From contig OZ249436.1 of NCBI GenBank assembly GCA_965235115.1, positions 19,470,001 to 19,534,000 of the forward strand: 64,000 nucleotides of DNA, given 5' to 3'. The notes below the pieces were generated by a model. It was given only the letters and a program-made list of their open reading frames with translations, ran no database searches and had not been told where the DNA came from. Within the stretch, counting starts at the first letter, position 1; the number at the start of each line of letters is the position of its first letter. Origin of the DNA: Laetmonice hystrix (lineage: Eukaryota). Shown here piece by piece: positions 241-45,284 of the stretch. Position numbers and translations under genes: made by a program.

Positions 241-370
241 CTGCGTTCTTAGCGATAGCTCCGATGATTACTGCAGGGATAGCCATCACCACACAGCCGA
301 AGGCTGCGATATATGAGAGGAGCTGGGCTCTCAGTGCCGACTTGGACGACAACACACGCTGGAAGTATAC
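241..370 (-). CDS. SLC5A7: CHT1-like coding exon 6 (gene continues beyond the left edge of the window)
   Basis: [43 protein letters not shown]. tttcag| acceptor, G|gtacgt donor, 130 nt, phase 0-1. The remaining C-terminal half of CHT1 is not in the window. Confidence 0.94.
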
Positions 371-780: not shown

Positions 781-1100
781 ACTAACCTGCCACGGTATCC
801 CCCCCAAAGATGAGCAGTAGTGCCGTGTCCAGCCAGGTGTCGGTGTGAGTGACGAGGTTGGGGTGGGGTGTGGGTGTGGGGTGAGGGGATGGGGTGGGGG
901 TGAGTACTAACCTGCCACGGTATCCCTCCAAAGATGAGCAGTAGTGCCGTGTCCAGCCAGGTGTCGGTGTGAGTGATGAGGTTGGGGTGGGGTGTGGGTG
1001 TGTGTGGGGTGTGGGTGTGGGGTGAGGGGATGGGGTTGGGGTGAGTACTAACCTGCCACGGTATCCCTCCAAAGATGAGCAGTAGTCCCGTGTCCAGCCA
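781..1100 (-). repeat. Triplicated exon-5 3' end plus splice donor (periods 141 and 125 bp)
   Basis: Three copies of the WLDT(A/G)[17 protein letters not shown] segment followed by CAG|GTTAGT (GT at 1051-52, 910-11, 785-86), separated by G/T-rich spacers. Confidence 0.9.
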
Positions 1101-1202
1101 GATGCCCGTGTCGCTTACATTCAGTTCACCGATCCATTCCGTGGCGTTAAACCGGATGTCCTGAACCAAAGGGTTCACCATAGCAAACGGCACGGTCAGC
1201 CA
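1053..1202 (-). CDS. SLC5A7: CHT1-like coding exon 5
   Basis: [50 protein letters not shown]. attcag| acceptor, CAG|gttagt donor, 150 nt, phase 0-0. Both junctions lie inside tandem repeats. Confidence 0.92.
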
Positions 1203-1932
1203 CTGAATCCGAGACAAACAACGTGAACAACACAAGTCATTTAGGTAATCGTGAGATATAGCAAACGGCACGGTCAGCCACTGAATCCGAGACAAACAAC
1301 GTGAACAACACAAGTCAGGTAATCGTGAGATATAGCAAACGGCACGGTCAGCCACTGAATCCGAGACAAACAACGTGAACAACACAAGTCATTTAGGTAA
1401 TCGTGAGATATAGCAAACGGCACGGTCAGCCACTGAATCCGAGACAAACAACGTGAACAACACAAGTCAGGTAATCGTGAGATATAGCAAACGGCACGGT
1501 CAGCCACTGAATCCGAGACAAACAACGTGAACAACACAAGTCAGGTAATCGTGAGATATAGCAAACGGCACGGTCAGCCACTGAATCCGAGACAAACAAC
1601 GTGAACAACACAAGTCAGGTAATCGTGAGATATAGCAAACGGCACGGTCAGCCACTGAATCCGAGACAAACAACGTGAACAACACAAGTCAGGTAATCGT
1701 GAGATATAGCAAACGGCACGGTCAGCCACTGAATCCGAGACAAACAACGTGAACAACACAAGCCAGGTAATCGTGAGATATAGCAAACGGCACGGTCAGC
1801 CACTGAATCCGAGACAAACAACGTGAACAACACAAGTCATTTAGGTAATCGTGAGATATAGCAAACGGCACGGTCAGCCACTGAATCCGAGACAAACAAC
1901 GTGAACAACACAAGTCAGGTAATCGTGAGATA
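1180..1932 (-). repeat. 74/78-bp tandem array spanning the exon-5 splice acceptor, 10 copies
   Basis: Unit = intron end + CAG + first ~23 nt of exon 5. Acceptor AGs at 1203, 1281, 1355, 1433, 1507, 1581, 1655, 1729, 1803 and 1881. Confidence 0.95.
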
Positions 1933-2219
1933 TCTAAATCTGGCTGCTATTACAAGGTGATCACAGTTCTCACAGCAAGTGTACGCTCTTCTCTCGCCTT
2001 CTTCAACTCTTACGTTTTCTTTTCAAGATGCGAACTCCAAAATCATTACAATTTTTATAGAGAAGAGTGAGCACACATATTAAGCAGCGAAAAGGATCCC
2101 TTATGGATGTTTTCTTGCGATCTACTTGGATCTCAACGTGTATTATGTGGTGTGAAAGTCCTAGAGTTGTAATCAGATTGCCCACTCAGACCATAACGAG
2201 ACGAGGATGGTGTACTGAC

Positions 2220-2368
2220 CAGGCCGACGAAGATACAGAAGAGTTGGATGACGTCAGTGTAGGCCACCGAGTAGAGACCTCCAAACAAGGTGTATGTGAT
2301 GGCGATACAAGCCGAGATGATGACAGCTGTCGTGTTCCCGAGGTCAATGATCACTGACAGTGTCGCTC
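2220..2368 (-). CDS. SLC5A7: CHT1-like coding exon 4
   Basis: [49 protein letters not shown], containing the SSS-family [12 protein letters not shown] motif. ttatag| acceptor, |gtcagt donor, 149 nt, phase 1-0. Confidence 0.95.
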
Positions 2369-2592
2369 CTATAACCAAAACACAACAATCAATCACATAT
2401 AATGGCGGGGACTAATAAGTGAATGTATGATTTTAATTAGGAGTTGCTAAAGGTATTTATTTTAGCATTAAACCATACCGATTTGGGGGTTGGATGTTGG
2501 GTGAGTGGCAGAGATATAAGATATATTTAGTGGCTGAGAACAACATAAGTTTGTTTTCCTGTACAAGATATACAAACAATGTCAGGTCTCAC

Positions 2593-2748
2593 CTAAAGCC
2601 GAGAGGATGGCAGCAGACCAGAACACTTCCCCTAGTAACGCTGGGATGTAGAGCAGGCCGCCCATACGCTCGCCGTACTTACGCTGGAACGGGTCTAACA
2701 TAGTCACGTACCCTTCGGATCTCATCTTGCTAGCGAAGAAAAAACCTC
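2593..2748 (-). CDS. SLC5A7: CHT1-like coding exon 3
   Basis: [51 protein letters not shown]. tttcag| acceptor, |gtgag donor, 156 nt, phase 1-1. Confidence 0.95.
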
Positions 2749-3053
2749 CTGAAACACAAAATGGTGGTTGCCATGGTTATCAGCAGTGATTTCTCCATTC
2801 AATTGTTAAGGTATTTTTGTTCCTATAATGAAAAAGTAAAACTCTTTTATTATTTTTTGTTGTTTTTTGCAAGCCTTTTCTAAGTAGGCTATAATCTCAA
2901 CAATAGCTCAAGAAGTCTACCTATTATTCAGTTTTTAAGTAAAAATCTTTTAAGTAGGTCAGCCGAAAGTAAACTCAAGGAGAACATTACAGAATCCATG
3001 TTCAAACAGACGCGGTCTGTTTTGTTGGGTTGATTTGAGAGAATGCTACTTAC

Positions 3054-3161
3054 CAAAGACAAGACTGAGGGCATATCCGAAAGGCGCTTGGCACCAAACG
3101 AGACCGGATGAAAATATGATTTCTGCTGTACCATTTATGTATCCACCACCCACCCATGTAG
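3054..3161 (-). CDS. SLC5A7: CHT1-like coding exon 2
   Basis: (A)[35 protein letters not shown](G), containing the diagnostic [13 protein letters not shown] motif. ttccag| acceptor, |gtaagt donor, 108 nt, phase 1-1. Confidence 0.95.
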
Positions 3162-3620
3162 CTGGAATAAAAATCAGAACACAATTTCTGTGAGTAAAAT
3201 ACGATTCTACCTCAGAACCACCAAGGTCATTGCGGAGAAAGCATATTGCACCAGTTTGCCGCTAGACGGCAGCACATTCCCCCATGTGCCGACCGCCGTC
3301 GGCACCGCCACACAATGCGGGGATCTCAACATTCATCAGGACGACGTCGTTCCGGTTCTAACGAGCTCTAATTGAAGGGTTGGTCGGGAAATCACAAACC
3401 TCAACTCCTGAACGACTCACACGGACAATTTCTCATTGACAAGTCGACAATCTATGGTCGTAGTCGGAAACTTAATGCACAGTTGGAGGGCCGTGTACCG
3501 TGAAAAGTGGCTGAGAAATCGGTCGTAACGAAATTTACGGTCACTCAGACAGGGGAAGGAAGGGACGACGAGGGTTAACATGGGTTCTAACAACAGCGGA
3601 ACAGAACAGCTATTTCTCGA

Positions 3621-4205
3621 CACAACCTGAGGCAGACCGCGGGGATCTCAATCAGCTAGCCTAGACAACCTGAGACAGACCACGGGGATCTCAATCAGCT
3701 AGCCTAGACAACCTGAGGCAGACCACGGGGATCTCAATGAGCTAGCCTAGACAACCTGGGACAGACCACGGGGATCTCAATCAGCTAGCCTAGACAACCC
3801 GAGGCAGACCACGGGGATCTCAATCAGCTAGCCTAGACAACCCGAGGCAGACCACGGGGATCTCAATCAGCTAGCTTAGACAACCTGAGACAGACCACGG
3901 GGATCTCAATCAGCTAGCCTAGACAACCTGAGGCAGACCACGGGGATCTCAATGAGCTAGCCTAGACAACCTGAGGCACACCACGGGGATCTCAATCAGC
4001 TAGCCTAGACAACCTGAGGCAGACCACGGGGATCTCAATCAGCTAGCCTAGACAACCTGAGGCAGACCACGGGGATCTCAATCAGCTAGCCTAGACAACC
4101 TGAGGCAGACCACGGGGATCTCAATCAGCTAGCCTAGACAACCCGAGGCAGACCACGGGGATCTCAATCAGCTAGCCTAGACAACCTGAGGCAGACACGG
4201 GGATC
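3621..4205. repeat. 43-bp minisatellite, ~13 copies (CHT1 intron)
   Basis: Unit gacaacctgaggcagaccacggggatctcaatcagctagccta. Confidence 0.95.
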
Positions 4206-5320
4206 CCAAACAGTTAAAACTCTGGTAAAATGATGTTGAAAATAATTATTCTCAAACAAATAGGCTAAAGCAATTATATAAACTTTGAATTGGTCTGAAA
4301 CCTACGGCACATCCAGGAAGGGGGTGGGATTCGGTATGAAGCCAGACCTCGAACTTCACTAACTGTCGAGGAGTCACATCCATTTTTCTCCCGCTCGATC
4401 CACACATAATTATGCCAGCATGTGATGGCTACGACTAAATAATTCTTCATTTTATTTTGGTTGGCTCTAGAAGATGCTGATTGGTTCAATCTCATGTTAA
4501 CCAAAATTTAATGGTGGCTTCAGACAACGCGAGATTCAGTGAGAATCATGATCTCGGTATGACGCTCGCGGAGAGTTATGGAGAGTTATATGCTGGTTAC
4601 GGGAGGCCTAGGCTGGTCGCTGGGGGTGGGGTGGGAGGTGGGGGGTGATACTCAGCCAGAGAGCCAAACGGCCGGTCATGCTACATGTCCATTGTCCCAG
4701 ACAACTGAGCGAGGGACACGAGAGCCTCTCTCTGGATCTACGGCGAACACGGGTCACGTGACCATCAGTGAGATTACGTGACGGGTTATCGCAAGTTTCC
4801 AGACTGGTCATTCTCCCTAACTCTCGAACTCTCGGCGGGTCAGCGGTGGGGTGGGGAGGTCAATACAGGATCTCACGCTTCTGTCATTTCTATTCTACCA
4901 CTCTAATAGGGAGCGTCATGTCATGTCATGTGAACATACACCTCTCCAAAATATTTCTTTTGACAATTAATCAAGGTATAACAAGGTATGAAATGTATTT
5001 TTATAACATAAGAGATGTTGGTTCTGCTGCATAGTAAGTTTGATAAGAAAGAGAACAATAAATCTGGACGGGTTGAAGTTGAGAGGTTTCTTTTCAATGG
5101 CCATATACCAATGCTAAATGACCGGAACCGGAATTTGTCTGTCGCCAGTTTGCGCCTCCAAACCGCATTTCTCGTCGAATCGCGCATTGTAACGTGACAT
5201 ACTAAACTCGGAAACCACTTCTCCCCTTACATTACTTCTCTGTAATTGGTGTCATTCGTATATTAATATCACCACTCCCGACTCCACCGGCATATCCAAT
5301 TCATTGTCTTCAACCCTCAC

Positions 5321-5486
5321 CTGTCATAGTGAATACTCCCACGATCATTCCGATGTTTCTCCCTGCTAGCATCACATCCTCGCTGTCCGGTTCACCGCGA
5401 GACTTCCTGGCCGCCCAGCATCCTACCAGCAGGATGAGGAGGTAGAAGAAGACGATAGCGATCAAACCACCAATGTGAACTCCCAT
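5321..5486 (-). CDS. SLC5A7: High-affinity choline transporter 1 (SLC5A7/CHT1-like), coding exon 1 (exon starts at 5512, 26 nt before the ATG)
   Basis: Translates [55 protein letters not shown], closely matching the CHT1 N-terminus (GLIAII.FYLLIL.VG.WAA...GR.IG..VG.FTMTA). Acceptor ttgcag|GC at 5513-5514, donor G|gtgag at 5319-5320, phase 1. Confidence 0.93.
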
Positions 5487-6103
5487 CCTGCGTCTGGGGT
5501 TGTACAACGTGCCTGCAACACACAAACCACCAATGTCAACTCCCATCCTGGGTGTACAACGTGCCTGTAACACACAAACCACCAATGTCAACTCCCATCC
5601 TGCGTCTGGGGTTGTACAAAGTGCCTGTAACACACAAACCACCAATGTCAACTCCCATCCTGGGTGTACAACGTGCCTGTAACACACAAACCACCAATGT
5701 CAACTCCCATCCTGTGTCTGGGGTGGTACAACGTGCCTGTAACACACAAACCACCAATGTCAACTCCCATCCTGCGTCTGGGGTTGTACAAAGTGCCTGT
5801 AACACACAAACCACCAATGTGAATTCCTATCCTGGGTCTGGGGTGGTACAACGTGCCTGTAACACACAAACCACCAAGGTGAACTCCCATCCTGGGTATG
5901 GGGGTGTACAAAGTGCCTGTAACACACAAACCACCAATGTGAACTCCCATCCTGGGTGTACAACGTGCCTGTAACACACAAACCACCAATGTGAACTCCC
6001 ATCCTGGGTATGGGGGTGTACAAAGTGCATGTAATATACAAACCACCCCATCCGGGGCCTAGGGGTGTAGGCTACAACGTGCCCGTAACACACAAACCAC
6101 CAA
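5463..6103 (-). repeat. 52/60-bp tandem array spanning the first coding exon acceptor and start codon, ~10 copies
   Basis: Each unit carries tgt(g/t)t(a/g)cag|GCAC...ATGGGAGTT(G/C)ACATTGGTGGTTTG (MGV[DH]IGGL). ATGs at 5486, 5546, 5598, 5658, 5710, 5770, 5890, 5950, 6002; the copy at 5830 is ATA. Confidence 0.93.
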
Positions 6104-8171: not shown

Positions 8172-8636
8172 TGTAGGAGGCCGTGGTTCCTGTCAGTGTC
8201 GTTAGGTGACGTTAGTAAAACATGATGTAGGCCTACTGTGGTAGCCTTGACAGGTGAGTTGTGTAGGAGGCCGTGGTTCCTGTCAGTGTCGTTAGGTGAC
8301 GTTAGTAAAACATGATGTAGGCCTACTGTGGTAGCCTTGACAGGTGAGTTGTGTAGGAGGCCGTGGTTCCTGTCAGTGTCGTTAGGTGACGTTAGTAAAA
8401 CATGATGTAGGCCTACTGTGGTAGCCTTGACAGGTGAGTTGTGTAGGAGGCCGTGGTTCCTGTCAGTGTCGTTAGGTGACGTTAGTAAAACATGATGTAG
8501 GCCTACTGTCGTAGCCTTGACAGGTGAGTGGTGTAGGAGGCCGTGGTTCCTGTCAGTGTCGTTAGGTGACGTTAGTAAAACATGATGTAGGCCTACTGTG
8601 GTAGCCTTGACAGGTGAGTTGTGTAGGAGGCCGTGG
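8172..8636. repeat. 90-bp tandem array, ~5 copies
   Basis: Near-identical units gtgtaggaggccgtgg...ccttgacaggtgagtt. Contains CAG|GTGAGT on +. Confidence 0.95.
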
Positions 8637-12837: not shown

Positions 12838-13570
12838 TACCCGGTCTGTGTAGACTTACCCCGACAGAACCACCTTCTGTCCCCGGTCGTCTGTGTAAAC
12901 TTACCCCGACAGAACCACCTTCTGTCCCCGGTCGTCTGTGTAAACTTACCCCGACAGAACCACCTCCTGTCCCCGGTCGTCTGTGTAGACTTACCCCGAC
13001 AGAACCACCTTCTGTCCCCGGTCGTCTGTGTAAACTTACCCCGACAGAACCACCTTCTGTCCCCGGTCGTCTGTGCAGACTTACCCCGACAGAACCACCT
13101 CCTGTCCCCAGTCGTCTGTGTAGACTTACCCCGACAGAACCAACCCTGTCCCCGGTCGTCTCTGTGGACTTACCCCGACAGAACCACCTCCTGTCCCCGG
13201 TCGCCTCTGCGGACTAACCCCGACAGAACCACCTCCTGTCCCCGGTCGTCTCTCTAGACTTACCCCGACAGAACCACCTCCTGTCCCCGGTCGTCTCTGC
13301 GGACTAACCCCGACAGAACCACATCCTGTCCCCGGTCGTCTCTCTAGACTTACCCCGACAGAACCATTTCCTGTCCCCTGTCACAACCATCTCCTGCCCC
13401 CGGTCGTCTGTGTAGACTTACCCCGACAAACCACCTCCTGTCCCCTGACAGAACCATCTCCTCCCCCGGTCGTCTGTGTGGACTTACCCCGACAGAACCA
13501 CCTCCTGTCCCCGGTCATCTGTGTAGACTTACCCCGACAGAACCAGCTCCTGTCCCCTGACAGAACCATC
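12838..13570. repeat. ~45-bp minisatellite, ~16 copies
   Basis: Unit acttaccccgacagaaccacc(t/c)tctgtccccggtcgtctgtgtag. The minus strand reads GGG|GTAAGT in most copies. Confidence 0.93.
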
Positions 13571-17651: not shown

Positions 17652-19084
17652 CAAGCCAAGCGCCGGCTTTGATTACCAATTGATTGGCTTGAAATTAGGT
17701 GATAAGACGCGAGATGGTAATTGGATTGTCAGATAAACTGCTGACAAATTGTCTGAAAGCAGGACCTCTTTCATGATGTGTCCGGCAGCGGGTGAGGCGC
17801 TGCCTTGACAACCATCGCCAGCCTACCCGGCATGCAAAGCAATTTTCTAGCACAAGAGAGCGACTGGTTTTCGCCTTTCAATACGTGCATGTATCATACA
17901 GTATCTGTCCAATACTACATAGACTTGACATGATTATGTCCTTGGTACTTTTGTTAAGGCACGCCGTGTGACCAGTCATCACGGACTTCTGTGTTATTTT
18001 CTAATCTCCACAGCAGACTGCATTTTCTGTTCAGACTTCAATGATGAACGAACAGAATTTCCATATGTCCTGTATAATCGAGTGTCGCCCAATGTCAGAC
18101 TATAATTCGATAAAAGAAGTAGCCTGCCATGTGAATAAAGCAAAATTAAATCTGTATCCATAGAAACACTGTCACCATGGATCACTTGCTATTCCACCCA
18201 CTGGGAGATGGTGGCAGAGACAACAAGCAGTTCCCACGGGGCAAACACTGGACGGATCACCATGTAATGCTACCCTGCCAAATCGTCCATTAATTGTTGA
18301 CTTTTTAAAAACAAATTAAGGTAAACAAGAATAAAATACTTACTTGAATATGGAGGGATGGACTGAGCTATGGACTGGTTATCAAACAGGTTTGGCGGGG
18401 ACTCGGGGTTGGACGATTTGAGTTGCTGGTGTAGACAAGGGGGGTGGTTACTGCACACAGCGACGATGACGCCCTCTACCGACACACTCACCCACCATAC
18501 CTGAAAGAGACGAGTAAACATTGAGACTCAGGTAAGACGATAATAAACCGACTCTCTCATACCGGCAGGTCCTCAACGTCTGCGGGTAGAACGTCTAATT
18601 AACCCGCCTTGAAATGATATCATGTCATCTTCACATCTTGAGGATTCTCCAGAAATGAGGTCACACATGCGCATGATAAAGTAGTTCTCAAGCCTGAAAC
18701 AAAGTGGTCTATATATCGGAAACAAAGTGGTACCTGACATTTGGATTATATTATATTCTGTCTCATGAATGTAATTTACCTGCTCCAAATGTTTGTTTCC
18801 ATAGACTACTTTCTTTGACTATACTGGACACTAGACTTGATTCGCGACATGAGTACGTGTTGTATCTGTCTGTAGCACGGAGTCGCCAACTGTGTGTAGA
18901 TTATCAATCTACACAGAACCCACAGACATCAGCTCGGACAATCCTGCACAGAAATCAATCTGTAGAAAATGAAGAGCGGGGCCATAGGAAATCAATCAGC
19001 ACCAAGTGAACCCGCTACACCCACCTGGCATATTAAAACCGTCACACAAACGTTTTATTCGCATGAAGTAGGGTGTCCCAGTCT

Positions 19085-19499
19085 AACTAACCTGACATAT
19101 TCTGACAGATGGCGCTGAAATCATACCCTCAACTAACCTGACAGATCCTGACAGACTGCACTGAAATCATACCCTCAACTAACCTGACAGATCCTGACAG
19201 ACTGCACTGAAATCATACCCTCAACTAACCTGACAGATCCTGACAGACTGCACTGAAATCATACCCTCAACTAACCTGACAGATCCTGACAGACTGCACT
19301 GAAATCATACCCTCAACTAACCTGACAGATCCTGACAGACTGCACTGAAATCATACCCTCAACTAACCTGACAGATCCTGACAGACTGCACTGAAATCAT
19401 ACCCTCAACTAACCTGACAGATCCTGACAGACTGCACTGAAATCATACCCTCAACTAACCTGACAGATCCTGACAGACTGCACTGAAATCATACCCTCA
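19085..19499. repeat. 46-bp tandem array, ~9 copies
   Basis: Unit gaaatcataccctcaactaacctgacagatcctgacagactgcact. The minus strand contains CAG|GTTAGT. Confidence 0.95.
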
Positions 19500-42459: not shown

Positions 42460-45284
42460 TAGTCCAGGCAAAAAATGCCAAAATTAGGGTTGTCTGGGAA
42501 AAATGTGGTACATAATTTTTTTCAGTGGATTTTAACCCTCTGAGGGGTCCTTATTAAGAATCCGATGGGTGTGGTCGCCACACCCTTGGGCATTTTGAGA
42601 AATCCAAGATGGCCGCCAAGATGGCTGCCATTTCACTAAAATGGCTATAACTTCCTTTCTATTTGTCACAGAAGGTTCATTTTTTCACCTATCCCTATGT
42701 TTTTGGGGTCAGGCAATCCATTAAAGGTGTTTTTAATTCCATTAAACAATGACGTCACCGGAAAATCCAAGATGGCCGCCAAGATGGCTGCCATTTCACT
42801 AAAATGGCTGTAACTTCCTTTCTATTTGTCACAGAAGGTTCATTTTTTCACCTATCCCTATGTTTTTGGGGTCAGGCAATCCACTAAAGGTGTTTTTGGT
42901 TCCATCAAATGATGACATTAACCGAAAATCCAACATGGCCGCCAAGATGGCTGCCGTTTCACTGAAATGGCTGTAACTTCTTTCCTATTCATCACAGAAG
43001 GTTAGTGTGAAAGGTGTTTTTAATTCCATTAAATGATGACGTTACCCGAAAATCCAACATGGCTGCCGAGATGGCTGTCCTTTCACTGAAATGGCTGTAA
43101 TTTTTTTCTATTCGTCACAAAAGGTTAATTTTTGCACCTATCTCTATGTTTTTGGGGTCAGGCTATCCTAGAGATATATATTTGGTGTCTATCCAGAGAA
43201 TTTTCGGGTTGCTGAATACATTGCCAATCATTGGGACAACTTCTACTGCAATTGGATGGCAAGGTCCGACCACCACCTGCCATGGTCCGACTATCTGGTA
43301 ACCAGTCTCTGCCAAGGTTTGACCCTTGCCAGTCCCTGCCCATACCCCACCACCAGCCACTGCCAAGGTCCGACCACCAGCCCTTGCCAAGGTCCGACCA
43401 CCAGCCACTGCCAAGGTCCGACCACCAGCCACTGCCAAGGTCCGACCACCAGCCACTGCCAAGGTCTGACCACCAGCCCTTAACTAGGTCCGACCACCAG
43501 CCACTGCCAAGGTCCGACCACCAGTCCTTGCCAAGGTCCGACCACCAGCCACTGCCAAGGTCCGACCACCAGCCCTTGACAAGGTCCGACCACCAGCCCT
43601 TGCCAAGGTCCGACCACCAGCCACTGCCAAGGTCCGACCACCAGCCACTGCCAAGGTCCGACCACCAGCCACTGCCAAGGTCCGACCACCAGCCACTGCC
43701 AAGGTCCGACCACCAGCCACTGCCAAGGTCCGACCACCAGCCACTGCCAAGGTCCGACCACCAACTCGGGCTGCCCATACCGCACCACCAGCCAAGGCCC
43801 GACCACAAACCTCTGCCCATATCGCACCAGTGATCACCAGCCAAGGTCTGACCACCAGTCCCTGCAAAGGTCTGAACACCAACACCATTTCATACTGCAC
43901 CACCCGCCAAGGTTAAACCACATCTTCCCCTACCACCAGCCAAGGTCCAACCACCAGCTGTTGCCCATACCCCACCACCAGCCAAGGTCTGACCACCAGC
44001 CGCTGCCCTTACCCTACCACCAGCCAAGGTCCAACCACCAGCTGCTGCCCATACCCCACCACCAGCCAAGGTCTGACCACCAGCCGCTGCCCTTACCCCA
44101 CCACCAGCCAAGGTCCGACCACCAGCCGCTGCTCTCACCCCACCACCAGCCAAGGTCTGACCACCAGCCGCTGCCCTTACCCCACCACCAGCCAAGGTAA
44201 GACCACCAGCCGCTGCCCTTACCCTACCACCAGCCAAGGTCTGACCACCAGCCGCTGCCCATACCCCACCACCAGCCAAGGTAAGACCACCAGCCGCTGC
44301 CCTTACCCCACCACCAGCCAAGGTAAGACCACCAGCCGCTGCCCTTACCCCACCACCAGCCAAGGTCTGACCACCAGCCGCTGCCCATACCCCACCACCA
44401 GCCAAGGTAAGACCACCAGCCGCTGCCCTTACCCCACCACCAGCCAAGGTAAGACCACCAGCCGCTGCCCTTACCCCACCACCAGCCAAGGTAAGACCAC
44501 CAGCCGCTGCCCTTACCCCACCACCAGCCAAAGTCCGACCACCAGCTGCTGGTCCGACCACCAGCTGCTGCCAAGGTCCGACCACCAGTAGCTGCCAAGA
44601 TCCGACCACCAGCTGCTGCCAAGGTCCGACCACCAGTAGCTGCCAAGGTCCGACCACCAGCTGCTGCCAAGGTCCGACCACCAGCTGCTGCCAAGGTCCG
44701 ACCACCAGTAGCTGCCAAGGTCCGACCACCAGCCCCTGCCCCTTACCCCACCATCAGCCAAGGTTCAACCATTAGCTGCTGCCAATATCCAGTGAAACGG
44801 CAGCCATCTTGGCGGCCATGTTGGATTTTCGGTTAATGTCATCATTTGATGGAACCAAAAACACCTTTAATGGATTGCCTGACCCCAAAAACATAGGGAT
44901 AGGTGAAAAAATGAACCTTCTGTGACAAATAGAAAGGAAGTTACAGCCATTTTAGTGAAATGGCAGCCATCTTGGCGGCCATCTTGGATTTTCCGGTGAC
45001 GTCATTGTTTAATGGAATTAAAAACACCTTTAATGGATTGCCTGACCCCAAAAACATAGGGATAGGTGAAAAAATGAACCTTCTGTGACAAATAGAAAGG
45101 AAGTTATAGCCATTTTAGTGAAATGGCAGCCATCTTGGCGGCCATCTTGGATTTCTTAAAATGCCCAAGGGTGTGGCGACCACACCCATCGGATTCTTAA
45201 TAAGGACCCCTCAGAGGGTTAAAATCCACTGAAAAAAATTATGTACCACATTTTTCCCAGACCAACCCTGTTTTGCCTAGACTA
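42460..45284. mobile_element. Non-autonomous DNA transposon with ~500-bp TIRs, Academ-like
   Basis: 42460-42964 is a near-perfect inverted copy of 44790-45284. Termini TAGTC(C/T)AGGCAAAA at both ends, AAA on both flanks (42457-59, 45285-87). The TIRs contain ~163-bp internal repeats with aaatccaagatggccgcc. No transposase ORF. The superfamily is inferred from the TAG...CTA ends, long TIRs and 3-bp TSD. Confidence 0.85.
43259..44765. repeat. 24-bp and 39-bp minisatellites inside the transposon
   Basis: gccaaggtccgaccaccagccact (24-mer) blocks flank gccaaggt(c/a)..accaccagccgctgcccttaccccaccacca (39-mer) blocks. Confidence 0.93.

What the first reader, a model, noticed from the sequence alone, without database searches (positions are those of the whole stretch)
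781..6103. Splice junctions of the choline transporter gene are themselves tandemly amplified
Seen: three separate, unrelated arrays each straddle a CHT1 exon-intron boundary (exon 5 donor x3, exon 5 acceptor x10, first coding exon acceptor plus ATG ~x10). Each unit is part exon and part intron, and the extra copies extend only into the intron, so the coding exon stays intact. Inference: either duplication is biased toward junctions (e.g. transcription/R-loop or splicing-linked repair), or arrays form everywhere and only this geometry survives near exons. Either way the spliceosome must choose among many identical sites, which is a natural experiment in splice-site choice and a possible source of new exon ends.
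Basis: partly seen in the sequence, partly recalled or inferred. Interest (0 to 1): 0.75.

Follow-up and report, generated by a model that had tools for sequence, protein, structure and literature searches.

The report
"Mirage" minisatellites in annelid choline transporter
Three short stretches that each span an exon edge of a choline-transporter gene, in what is probably an annelid worm, are copied head-to-tail 3 to 11 times; this oddity is already known from lancelets ("mirages") and a human clotting-factor gene, and is likely a harmless by-product of a repeat-packed genome.

Summary
A CHT1/SLC5A7 gene on the minus strand has three unrelated arrays that straddle 3 of its 12 splice sites in the window: fifth coding exon donor x3, its acceptor x10, and the ATG exon's presumed acceptor x11 (9 keep AG). 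Read-derived contigs of one sample break at the array edges, which argues against an assembly artefact. The protein groups with annelids. These are "mirage" minisatellites, published for amphioxus (Adh3, globins, troponin C, PGBD5); the human F7 intron-7 repeat is the same design, and the splice-choice experiment was done on it in 2006. The window is 38% tandem repeat. Its array density predicts 0.5 straddling arrays against 3 seen (P about 0.015), but the gene was picked for showing them, so junction-biased mutation is not established. The intact exon follows from geometry alone. The exon-adjacent site is most likely used (smallest exon, first donor); no RNA could be laid. One oddity: in all three arrays the nearest extra site gives an in-frame, stop-free product (chance 0.04-0.11). 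The scan noted the same pattern before in this genome and in others.

The parts
5321..5512 (-). First coding exon of CHT1/SLC5A7; ATG at 5486; most likely acceptor at 5512 (inferred), donor at 5321
   Evidence: tblastn of Capitella CHT1 residues 1-59, 80%; sites read from sequence
5463..6103 (-). Array C: 11 units of 52-60 nt, each about 10 nt of intron end, 26 (or 18) nt of presumed 5' UTR, ATG and codons MGVH/DIGGL; 9 keep AG; the two outermost units are degenerate
3622..4213 (.). 43-nt minisatellite x13.8 wholly inside the first coding intron; no junction in its unit (internal control)
3054..3161 (-). Second coding exon; both junctions single-copy
2593..2748 (-). Third coding exon; both junctions single-copy
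2220..2368 (-). Fourth coding exon; both junctions single-copy; Pfam SSF PF00474, E 4e-06
1180..1933 (-). Array B: 10 copies of the last 51-55 nt of intron 4 plus the first 23 nt of the fifth coding exon; acceptors at 1202, 1280, 1354, 1432, 1506, 1580, 1654, 1728, 1802, 1880; 9 of 10 identical over 59 nt around the AG
1053..1202 (-). Fifth coding exon, 150 nt, intact, flanked by arrays at both ends; flanking introns 1017 and 682 nt
781..1101 (-). Array A: 3 copies of the last 49 nt of the fifth coding exon plus a C/A-rich intron start; donors at 1053, 912, 787 (spacing 141, 125)
241..370 (-). Sixth coding exon; both junctions single-copy; the gene continues beyond the window's low end

Best explanation
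These are three mirage-type minisatellites, tandem copies of junction-spanning pieces of the CHT1 gene, that likely arose by the same local duplication and slippage or unequal crossing-over that fills this genome with arrays, and likely persist because the spliceosome would still pick the site next to the whole exon. Shown: the anatomy, the intact reading frame, the array density, multi-copy state in reads of one sample. Inferred: a founder duplication of 50-140 nt that happened to span one junction; later expansion; removal by selection of arrays that break coding sequence; use of the exon-adjacent site, because it gives the smallest exon (150 nt against 228-828) between long introns and, for the donor, is the first met. 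Rare use of distant copies would mostly give frameshifts and early stops.
For: Anatomy matches the published mirage definition. 38% of the window is TRF-masked; 28 arrays lie outside the gene, 0.69 per kb of collapsed sequence, and 4 arrays in the gene compare with 3.0 expected. Only the exon-adjacent sites give the conserved protein without insertion. 8 of 9 extra acceptors of array B, 1 of 2 extra donors and 7 of 8 extra AG-bearing acceptors of array C lead to early stops. Human data: the smallest exon is preferred when flanking introns exceed about 250 nt (PMC9225289, passages); identical downstream donors in F7 intron 7 stay silent (PMC1557585, abstract). Amphioxus mirages were reported not to disturb splicing. 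Contigs of three runs end at the array edges (833, 1904, 5507, 5999).
Against: 3 straddling arrays against 0.50 expected (Poisson and simulation P about 0.015; 3 of 4 arrays, P 0.03), so chance plus filtering does not comfortably explain this gene alone. The splice-choice rules cited come from mammals; the classical intron-proximity rule would favour the wrong copies. The nearest extra site is in frame and stop-free in all three arrays, which a purely neutral model expects only 4-11% of the time.
Confidence: 0.68

Rival explanations
1. Founder duplications are biased towards exon-intron junctions, through polymerase pausing, R-loops, nucleosome or GC steps at exon edges, or repair templated by partly spliced RNA; arrays are then tolerated as in the best explanation.
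For: 3 of 12 junctions hit against 0.5 expected. Many other genes of this genome were noted with such arrays (unchecked AI notes, themselves picked for the pattern). Ebner et al. call the generating mechanism unclear.
Against: The gene was selected because it shows the pattern; for the internal arrays alone, 2 of 3 straddling has P 0.11. No clear splice-motif excess in 26 other array families: donors 8 vs 5.9, 3 vs 1.0, 1 vs 0.05 at three thresholds (P 0.22, 0.08, 0.05), acceptors none. Units are colinear genomic exon-plus-intron pieces with no exon-exon joins, so no spliced template is needed.
Confidence: 0.2
2. The nearest extra site of each array is used at a meaningful rate and yields CHT1 isoforms with +20 residues at the N-terminus, +26 or +47 residues around the fifth coding exon; unit lengths next to the exon are kept in frame by selection.
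For: Acceptor 1280 (+78 nt), donor 912 (+141 nt) and ATG 5546 (+60 nt) are all in frame and stop-free. Two of the three longer exons (228, 244 nt) are still under 250 nt.
Against: Post-hoc pattern; chance 0.04 (random frames) to 0.11 (given the unit mix in each array). The insertions would fall in a conserved membrane protein that aligns to Capitella CHT1 with 3 gap positions in 289. F7 and amphioxus precedents report silent copies.
Confidence: 0.08
3. The arrays are assembly or long-read artefacts and the animal has single junctions.
For: No contig spans an array, so copy number was not measured. All three runs are one sample, possibly the one assembled.
Against: Contigs break at the array edges in the listed pieces and peak bins inside arrays B and C are 4-9 times flank depth (the tool warns that this is no copy number). 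Units differ by structured variants (74/78, 52/60) and array C decays outwards.
Confidence: 0.03

Closest known systems
'Mirage' minisatellites of amphioxus: Adh3 (Canestro et al. 2002, cited in PMC3087553, itself not readable here), globins BflGb6 and BflGb9 (PMC3087553, abstract and passages), troponin C and PGBD5 (PMC3902484, passages)
   Same: Tandem units that span one exon-intron boundary, at 5' or 3' ends of exons; unit sizes inside the reported 10-160 bp; many but not all copies keep AG or GT; several arrays per gene; edge copies less homogenised.
   Different: Host is most likely an annelid, not a cephalochordate; one array includes the start codon; one exon carries arrays at both ends. 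Silence of the copies and length polymorphism were not shown here.
Human F7 intron 7 (IVS7) 37-bp VNTR (PMC1557585, abstract and section list)
   Same: First unit spans the exon-intron boundary and the true donor is followed by identical pseudo-donors, as in array A.
   Different: F7 copies were shown to be functional but silent, with a 5'-to-3' scanning rule; it concerns donors only. Arrays B and C here are acceptors, where the last, not the first, copy must be used.
Internal tandem repeats at exon-intron boundaries of human segmental-duplication genes (PMC2812944, passages)
   Same: Variable tandem repeats at boundaries that can alter splicing.
   Different: There new introns or alternative transcripts were supported by RNA; here no new intron or exon is evident and the gene is a conserved single-copy-type transporter.

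Membership tests
Mirage minisatellite | Tandem repeat whose unit spans an exon-intron boundary | tested here: met
   Arrays A and B by protein homology and GT/AG; array C with an inferred acceptor
Mirage minisatellite | Minisatellite-size unit (10-160 bp in PMC3087553) | tested here: met
   125/141, 74/78 and 52-60 nt
Mirage minisatellite | Many, not all, copies keep the splice dinucleotide | tested here: met
   3 of 3 GT, 10 of 10 AG, 9 of 11 AG
Mirage minisatellite | Normal mRNA is made; extra sites are silent | not testable with these tools
   No RNA run was listed for this stretch
Mirage minisatellite | Copy number differs between haplotypes or cells | tested here: inconclusive
   Contigs show two alleles in the flanks but collapse the arrays
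Mirage minisatellite | Homogenised inner units, divergent edge units | tested here: met
   Array B 9 of 10 identical around the AG; array C outer two units lost AG; array A outer unit has an indel
F7 IVS7-type pseudo-donor VNTR | Identical donor copies downstream of the true donor | tested here: met
   CAG/GTTAGTAC at 1053, 912, 787
F7 IVS7-type pseudo-donor VNTR | Pseudo-sites functional when the first is lost, silent otherwise | not testable with these tools
   Needs minigenes or RNA
CHT1/SLC5A7 high-affinity choline transporter | Sodium:solute symporter domain and closest homologues annotated as CHT1 | tested here: met
   PF00474 on exon 4; top named hits are CHT1-like, 77-79% over 286 aa

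The most novel reading that the evidence does not exclude
In this annelid genome tandem duplication is truly drawn to splice junctions, and the unit next to each exon is kept in frame because it is used at low rate, so mirages act as a standing, copy-number-variable supply of alternative exon ends and N-termini in essential genes.
Probability: 0.08. Interest if true: 0.7.

Novelty: new member of a known kind. Interest (0 to 1): 0.2.

Why it matters
As it stands this is a tidy further example that extends mirages from lancelets to a probable annelid; my searches found no paper on annelid mirages, though the library lacks most subscription papers. Its practical value: such arrays mislead gene prediction, and arrays of ten identical acceptors allow a test of 3' splice-site choice that F7 (donors only) does not. 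It would matter more if a genome-wide count showed a real mutational bias to junctions or regular use of the nearest copy, as the origin of mirages is stated to be unclear (PMC3087553) and they were proposed as a route to intron gain.

Tried and rejected
No whole genome is held, so the genome-wide enrichment test could not be run. No RNA holder listed. Pfam scan of 267 stop-to-stop frames of 50 aa or more outside repeats in 6.1-64 kb: 0 of 267 passed a curated cut-off, 4 weak hits below it; the scan is insensitive, as only 1 of 6 true CHT1 exons hit, so other short exons may exist. A first motif test gave donor-like motifs in 6 of 28 outside arrays against 2.0 expected (P 0.016), but its pattern was written after I had seen the units, so I rejected it; the fixed consensus score (26 families; 30564 merged with 30052, 42600 dropped as a dispersed element) gave P 0.05-0.22 for donors and nothing for acceptors. 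The 43-nt array has no similarity to CHT1 exons. A shared mobile seed for the three arrays is rejected: no cross-hits. A lancelet host is unlikely: the protein falls with four annelids (95/94) inside protostomes (96/99), though no lancelet sequence was among the 207 proteins. The original mirage paper (Canestro 2002) was not held. Contig depth was not used as copy number. Supplements of the papers were not read.

Full report
THE GENE. The low end of the window holds the first six coding exons of a high-affinity choline transporter (CHT1/SLC5A7) on the minus strand: 5321-5486 (from the ATG), 3054-3161, 2593-2748, 2220-2368, 1053-1202 and 241-370. Spliced at GT/AG sites they give 286 codons without a stop (one search had exon 4 one base short). 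The best of 207 fetched proteins are Capitella (78.9%), Tubulanus (79.4%) and Lamellibrachia (77.4%). In a tree of 30 rows the window's protein joins the four annelids (95/94) inside protostomes (96/99); the gar row is a long branch and no lancelet row was available. The host is therefore probably an annelid. No whole genome is held.

THE ARRAYS. Array A (781-1101) has three copies of the last 49 nt of the fifth coding exon plus a C/A-rich intron start; donors read CAG/GTTAGTAC at 1053, 912 and 787. Array B (1180-1933) has ten copies of 51-55 nt of intron end plus the first 23 nt of the same exon, spaced 74 or 78 nt; nine are identical over 59 nt around the AG. Array C (5463-6103) has eleven units of 52-60 nt with about 10 nt of intron end, the presumed 5' UTR, the ATG and eight codons; nine keep AG and the two outermost have lost it. 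Its acceptor is inferred from motif only. The units hit nothing outside their own arrays. A fourth array (3622-4213) is wholly intronic. So 3 of 12 junctions and 3 of 4 arrays are involved. Short repeats near the break points (11 nt shared by intron end and codons 5-8 in C, 5-6 nt in A, 2-3 nt in B; read) may have seeded the founder duplications; that is inference.

ARE THEY REAL? Three runs of one sample hold the stretch. Their listed contigs end or begin at 833, 1904, 5507 and 5999, at the array edges, and peak bins in arrays B and C are 4-9 times flank depth. This is what collapsed repeats give. It is not a copy number, no contig spans an array, and the sample may be the one assembled.

MORE THAN CHANCE? 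The window is 38% TRF-masked. Outside the gene there are 28 arrays (period 20 or more, 2.5 copies or more, score 150 or more), 0.69 per kb of collapsed sequence, mean period 61.5. At that rate 0.50 arrays should straddle one of 12 junctions; three or more has P 0.015 by Poisson and by simulation. The total number in the gene is ordinary (4 against 3.0), and 1 intronic array compares with 1.8 expected. Given four arrays, three straddling has P 0.03; for the three internal ones, two straddling has P 0.11. The gene was singled out because it shows the pattern, so these values overstate the case. A fixed splice-consensus score on 26 other array families gave donors 8, 3 and 1 against 5.9, 1.0 and 0.05 expected (P 0.22, 0.08, 0.05) and no acceptor excess; an earlier pattern written after seeing the units gave P 0.016 and is discounted. 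No other coding gene was found (0 of 267 frames above Pfam cut-offs, a weak test). Junction bias is neither shown nor excluded.

HOW IT LIKELY WORKS. A tandem copy of a piece spanning one junction always leaves one whole exon, so the 'intact exon' needs no special mechanism. What must be explained is site choice. The conserved protein needs the first donor (1053) and the last acceptors (1202, 5512), which give the smallest exons: 150 nt against 228-828 or 291-416, and 192 against 244-648. The fifth exon lies between introns of 1017 and 682 nt. In human data, competing sites in long introns (over about 250 nt) resolve to the smaller exon, while short introns follow the opposite rule (PMC9225289, passages). 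In human F7 intron 7, identical downstream donors are functional but silent, the most upstream being chosen (PMC1557585, abstract). I infer the same here; it was not tested, as no RNA run was listed. Most wrong choices end in early stops: 8 of 9 extra acceptors in B, 1 of 2 extra donors in A, 7 of 8 extra acceptors in C.

ONE ODDITY. The nearest extra site is in frame and stop-free in all three arrays: +78 nt (26 residues), +141 nt (47 residues), and an ATG 60 nt upstream (20 residues). Chance is 0.04 with random frames, 0.11 given each array's own unit mix. I noticed this after the fact; it is a lead for a genome-wide count, not a result.

WHAT IS KNOWN. Tandem repeats spanning exon-intron boundaries were named 'mirages' in amphioxus Adh3 and described in globins BflGb6 and BflGb9: units of 10-160 bp, many keeping AG/GT, no disturbance of splicing seen, length instability, unclear origin, and a proposed route to intron gain (PMC3087553, abstract and passages). 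Troponin C and PGBD5 are further lancelet cases (PMC3902484, passages). The original paper could not be read. Human boundary repeats that alter splicing are described in PMC2812944 (passages). Searches listed no annelid case. I had the mirage match before consulting the scan's notes; those notes list many such arrays in this same genome and in other annelid and urchin windows, and gave the F7 lead that I then checked. They are unchecked notes, not support.

VERDICT. Real, correctly described, and a new member of a known kind. Best explanation (0.68): by-products of dense minisatellite formation, tolerated because the exon-adjacent site is likely chosen. Rivals: junction-biased duplication 0.20, functional use of the nearest copies 0.08, artefact 0.03. 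Interest 0.2.

Noticed in passing
window 787-1280 and 5486-5564: The nearest extra splice site or ATG of each of the three arrays gives an in-frame, stop-free product (+141, +78, +60 nt); chance 0.04-0.11.
   Followed up: partly
window 4892-5299: A very high-copy interspersed repeat in the first coding intron: summed contig depth 5,000-62,000 against about 50 in the flanks, with many loose ends at 5106-5203; SINE- or MITE-like.
   Followed up: no
window about 42480-43100 and 44790-45275: Two long inverted copies of a 163-nt-unit repeat flank the 43349-44783 minisatellite, like a foldback or non-autonomous DNA transposon carrying an array (read by eye).
   Followed up: no
window 6474, 8172, 12844, 19085, 60390: Array units with donor-like motifs (CAG/GTGAGT at 8172 on +; CAG/GTTAGT at 19085 and G/GTAAGT at 12844 on -). 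They could be mirages of unannotated non-coding exons, such as CHT1 5' UTR exons; the excess over chance is marginal.
   Followed up: partly
window 18344-18501, minus strand: A stretch bounded by a good acceptor and a GTAAGT donor, without a Pfam hit; possible non-coding exon.
   Followed up: partly
protein P0001 (Paragonimus kellicotti): A predicted protein holding the whole first coding exon of CHT1 twice in tandem; a larger exon duplication or an assembly or annotation artefact.
   Followed up: no
window 2024-3457 and 4169-4538: Contigs of the one sample differ from the window at 40 listed places (14 more not shown) plus small indels, some of them in the high-copy repeat, which points to high heterozygosity.
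   Followed up: no
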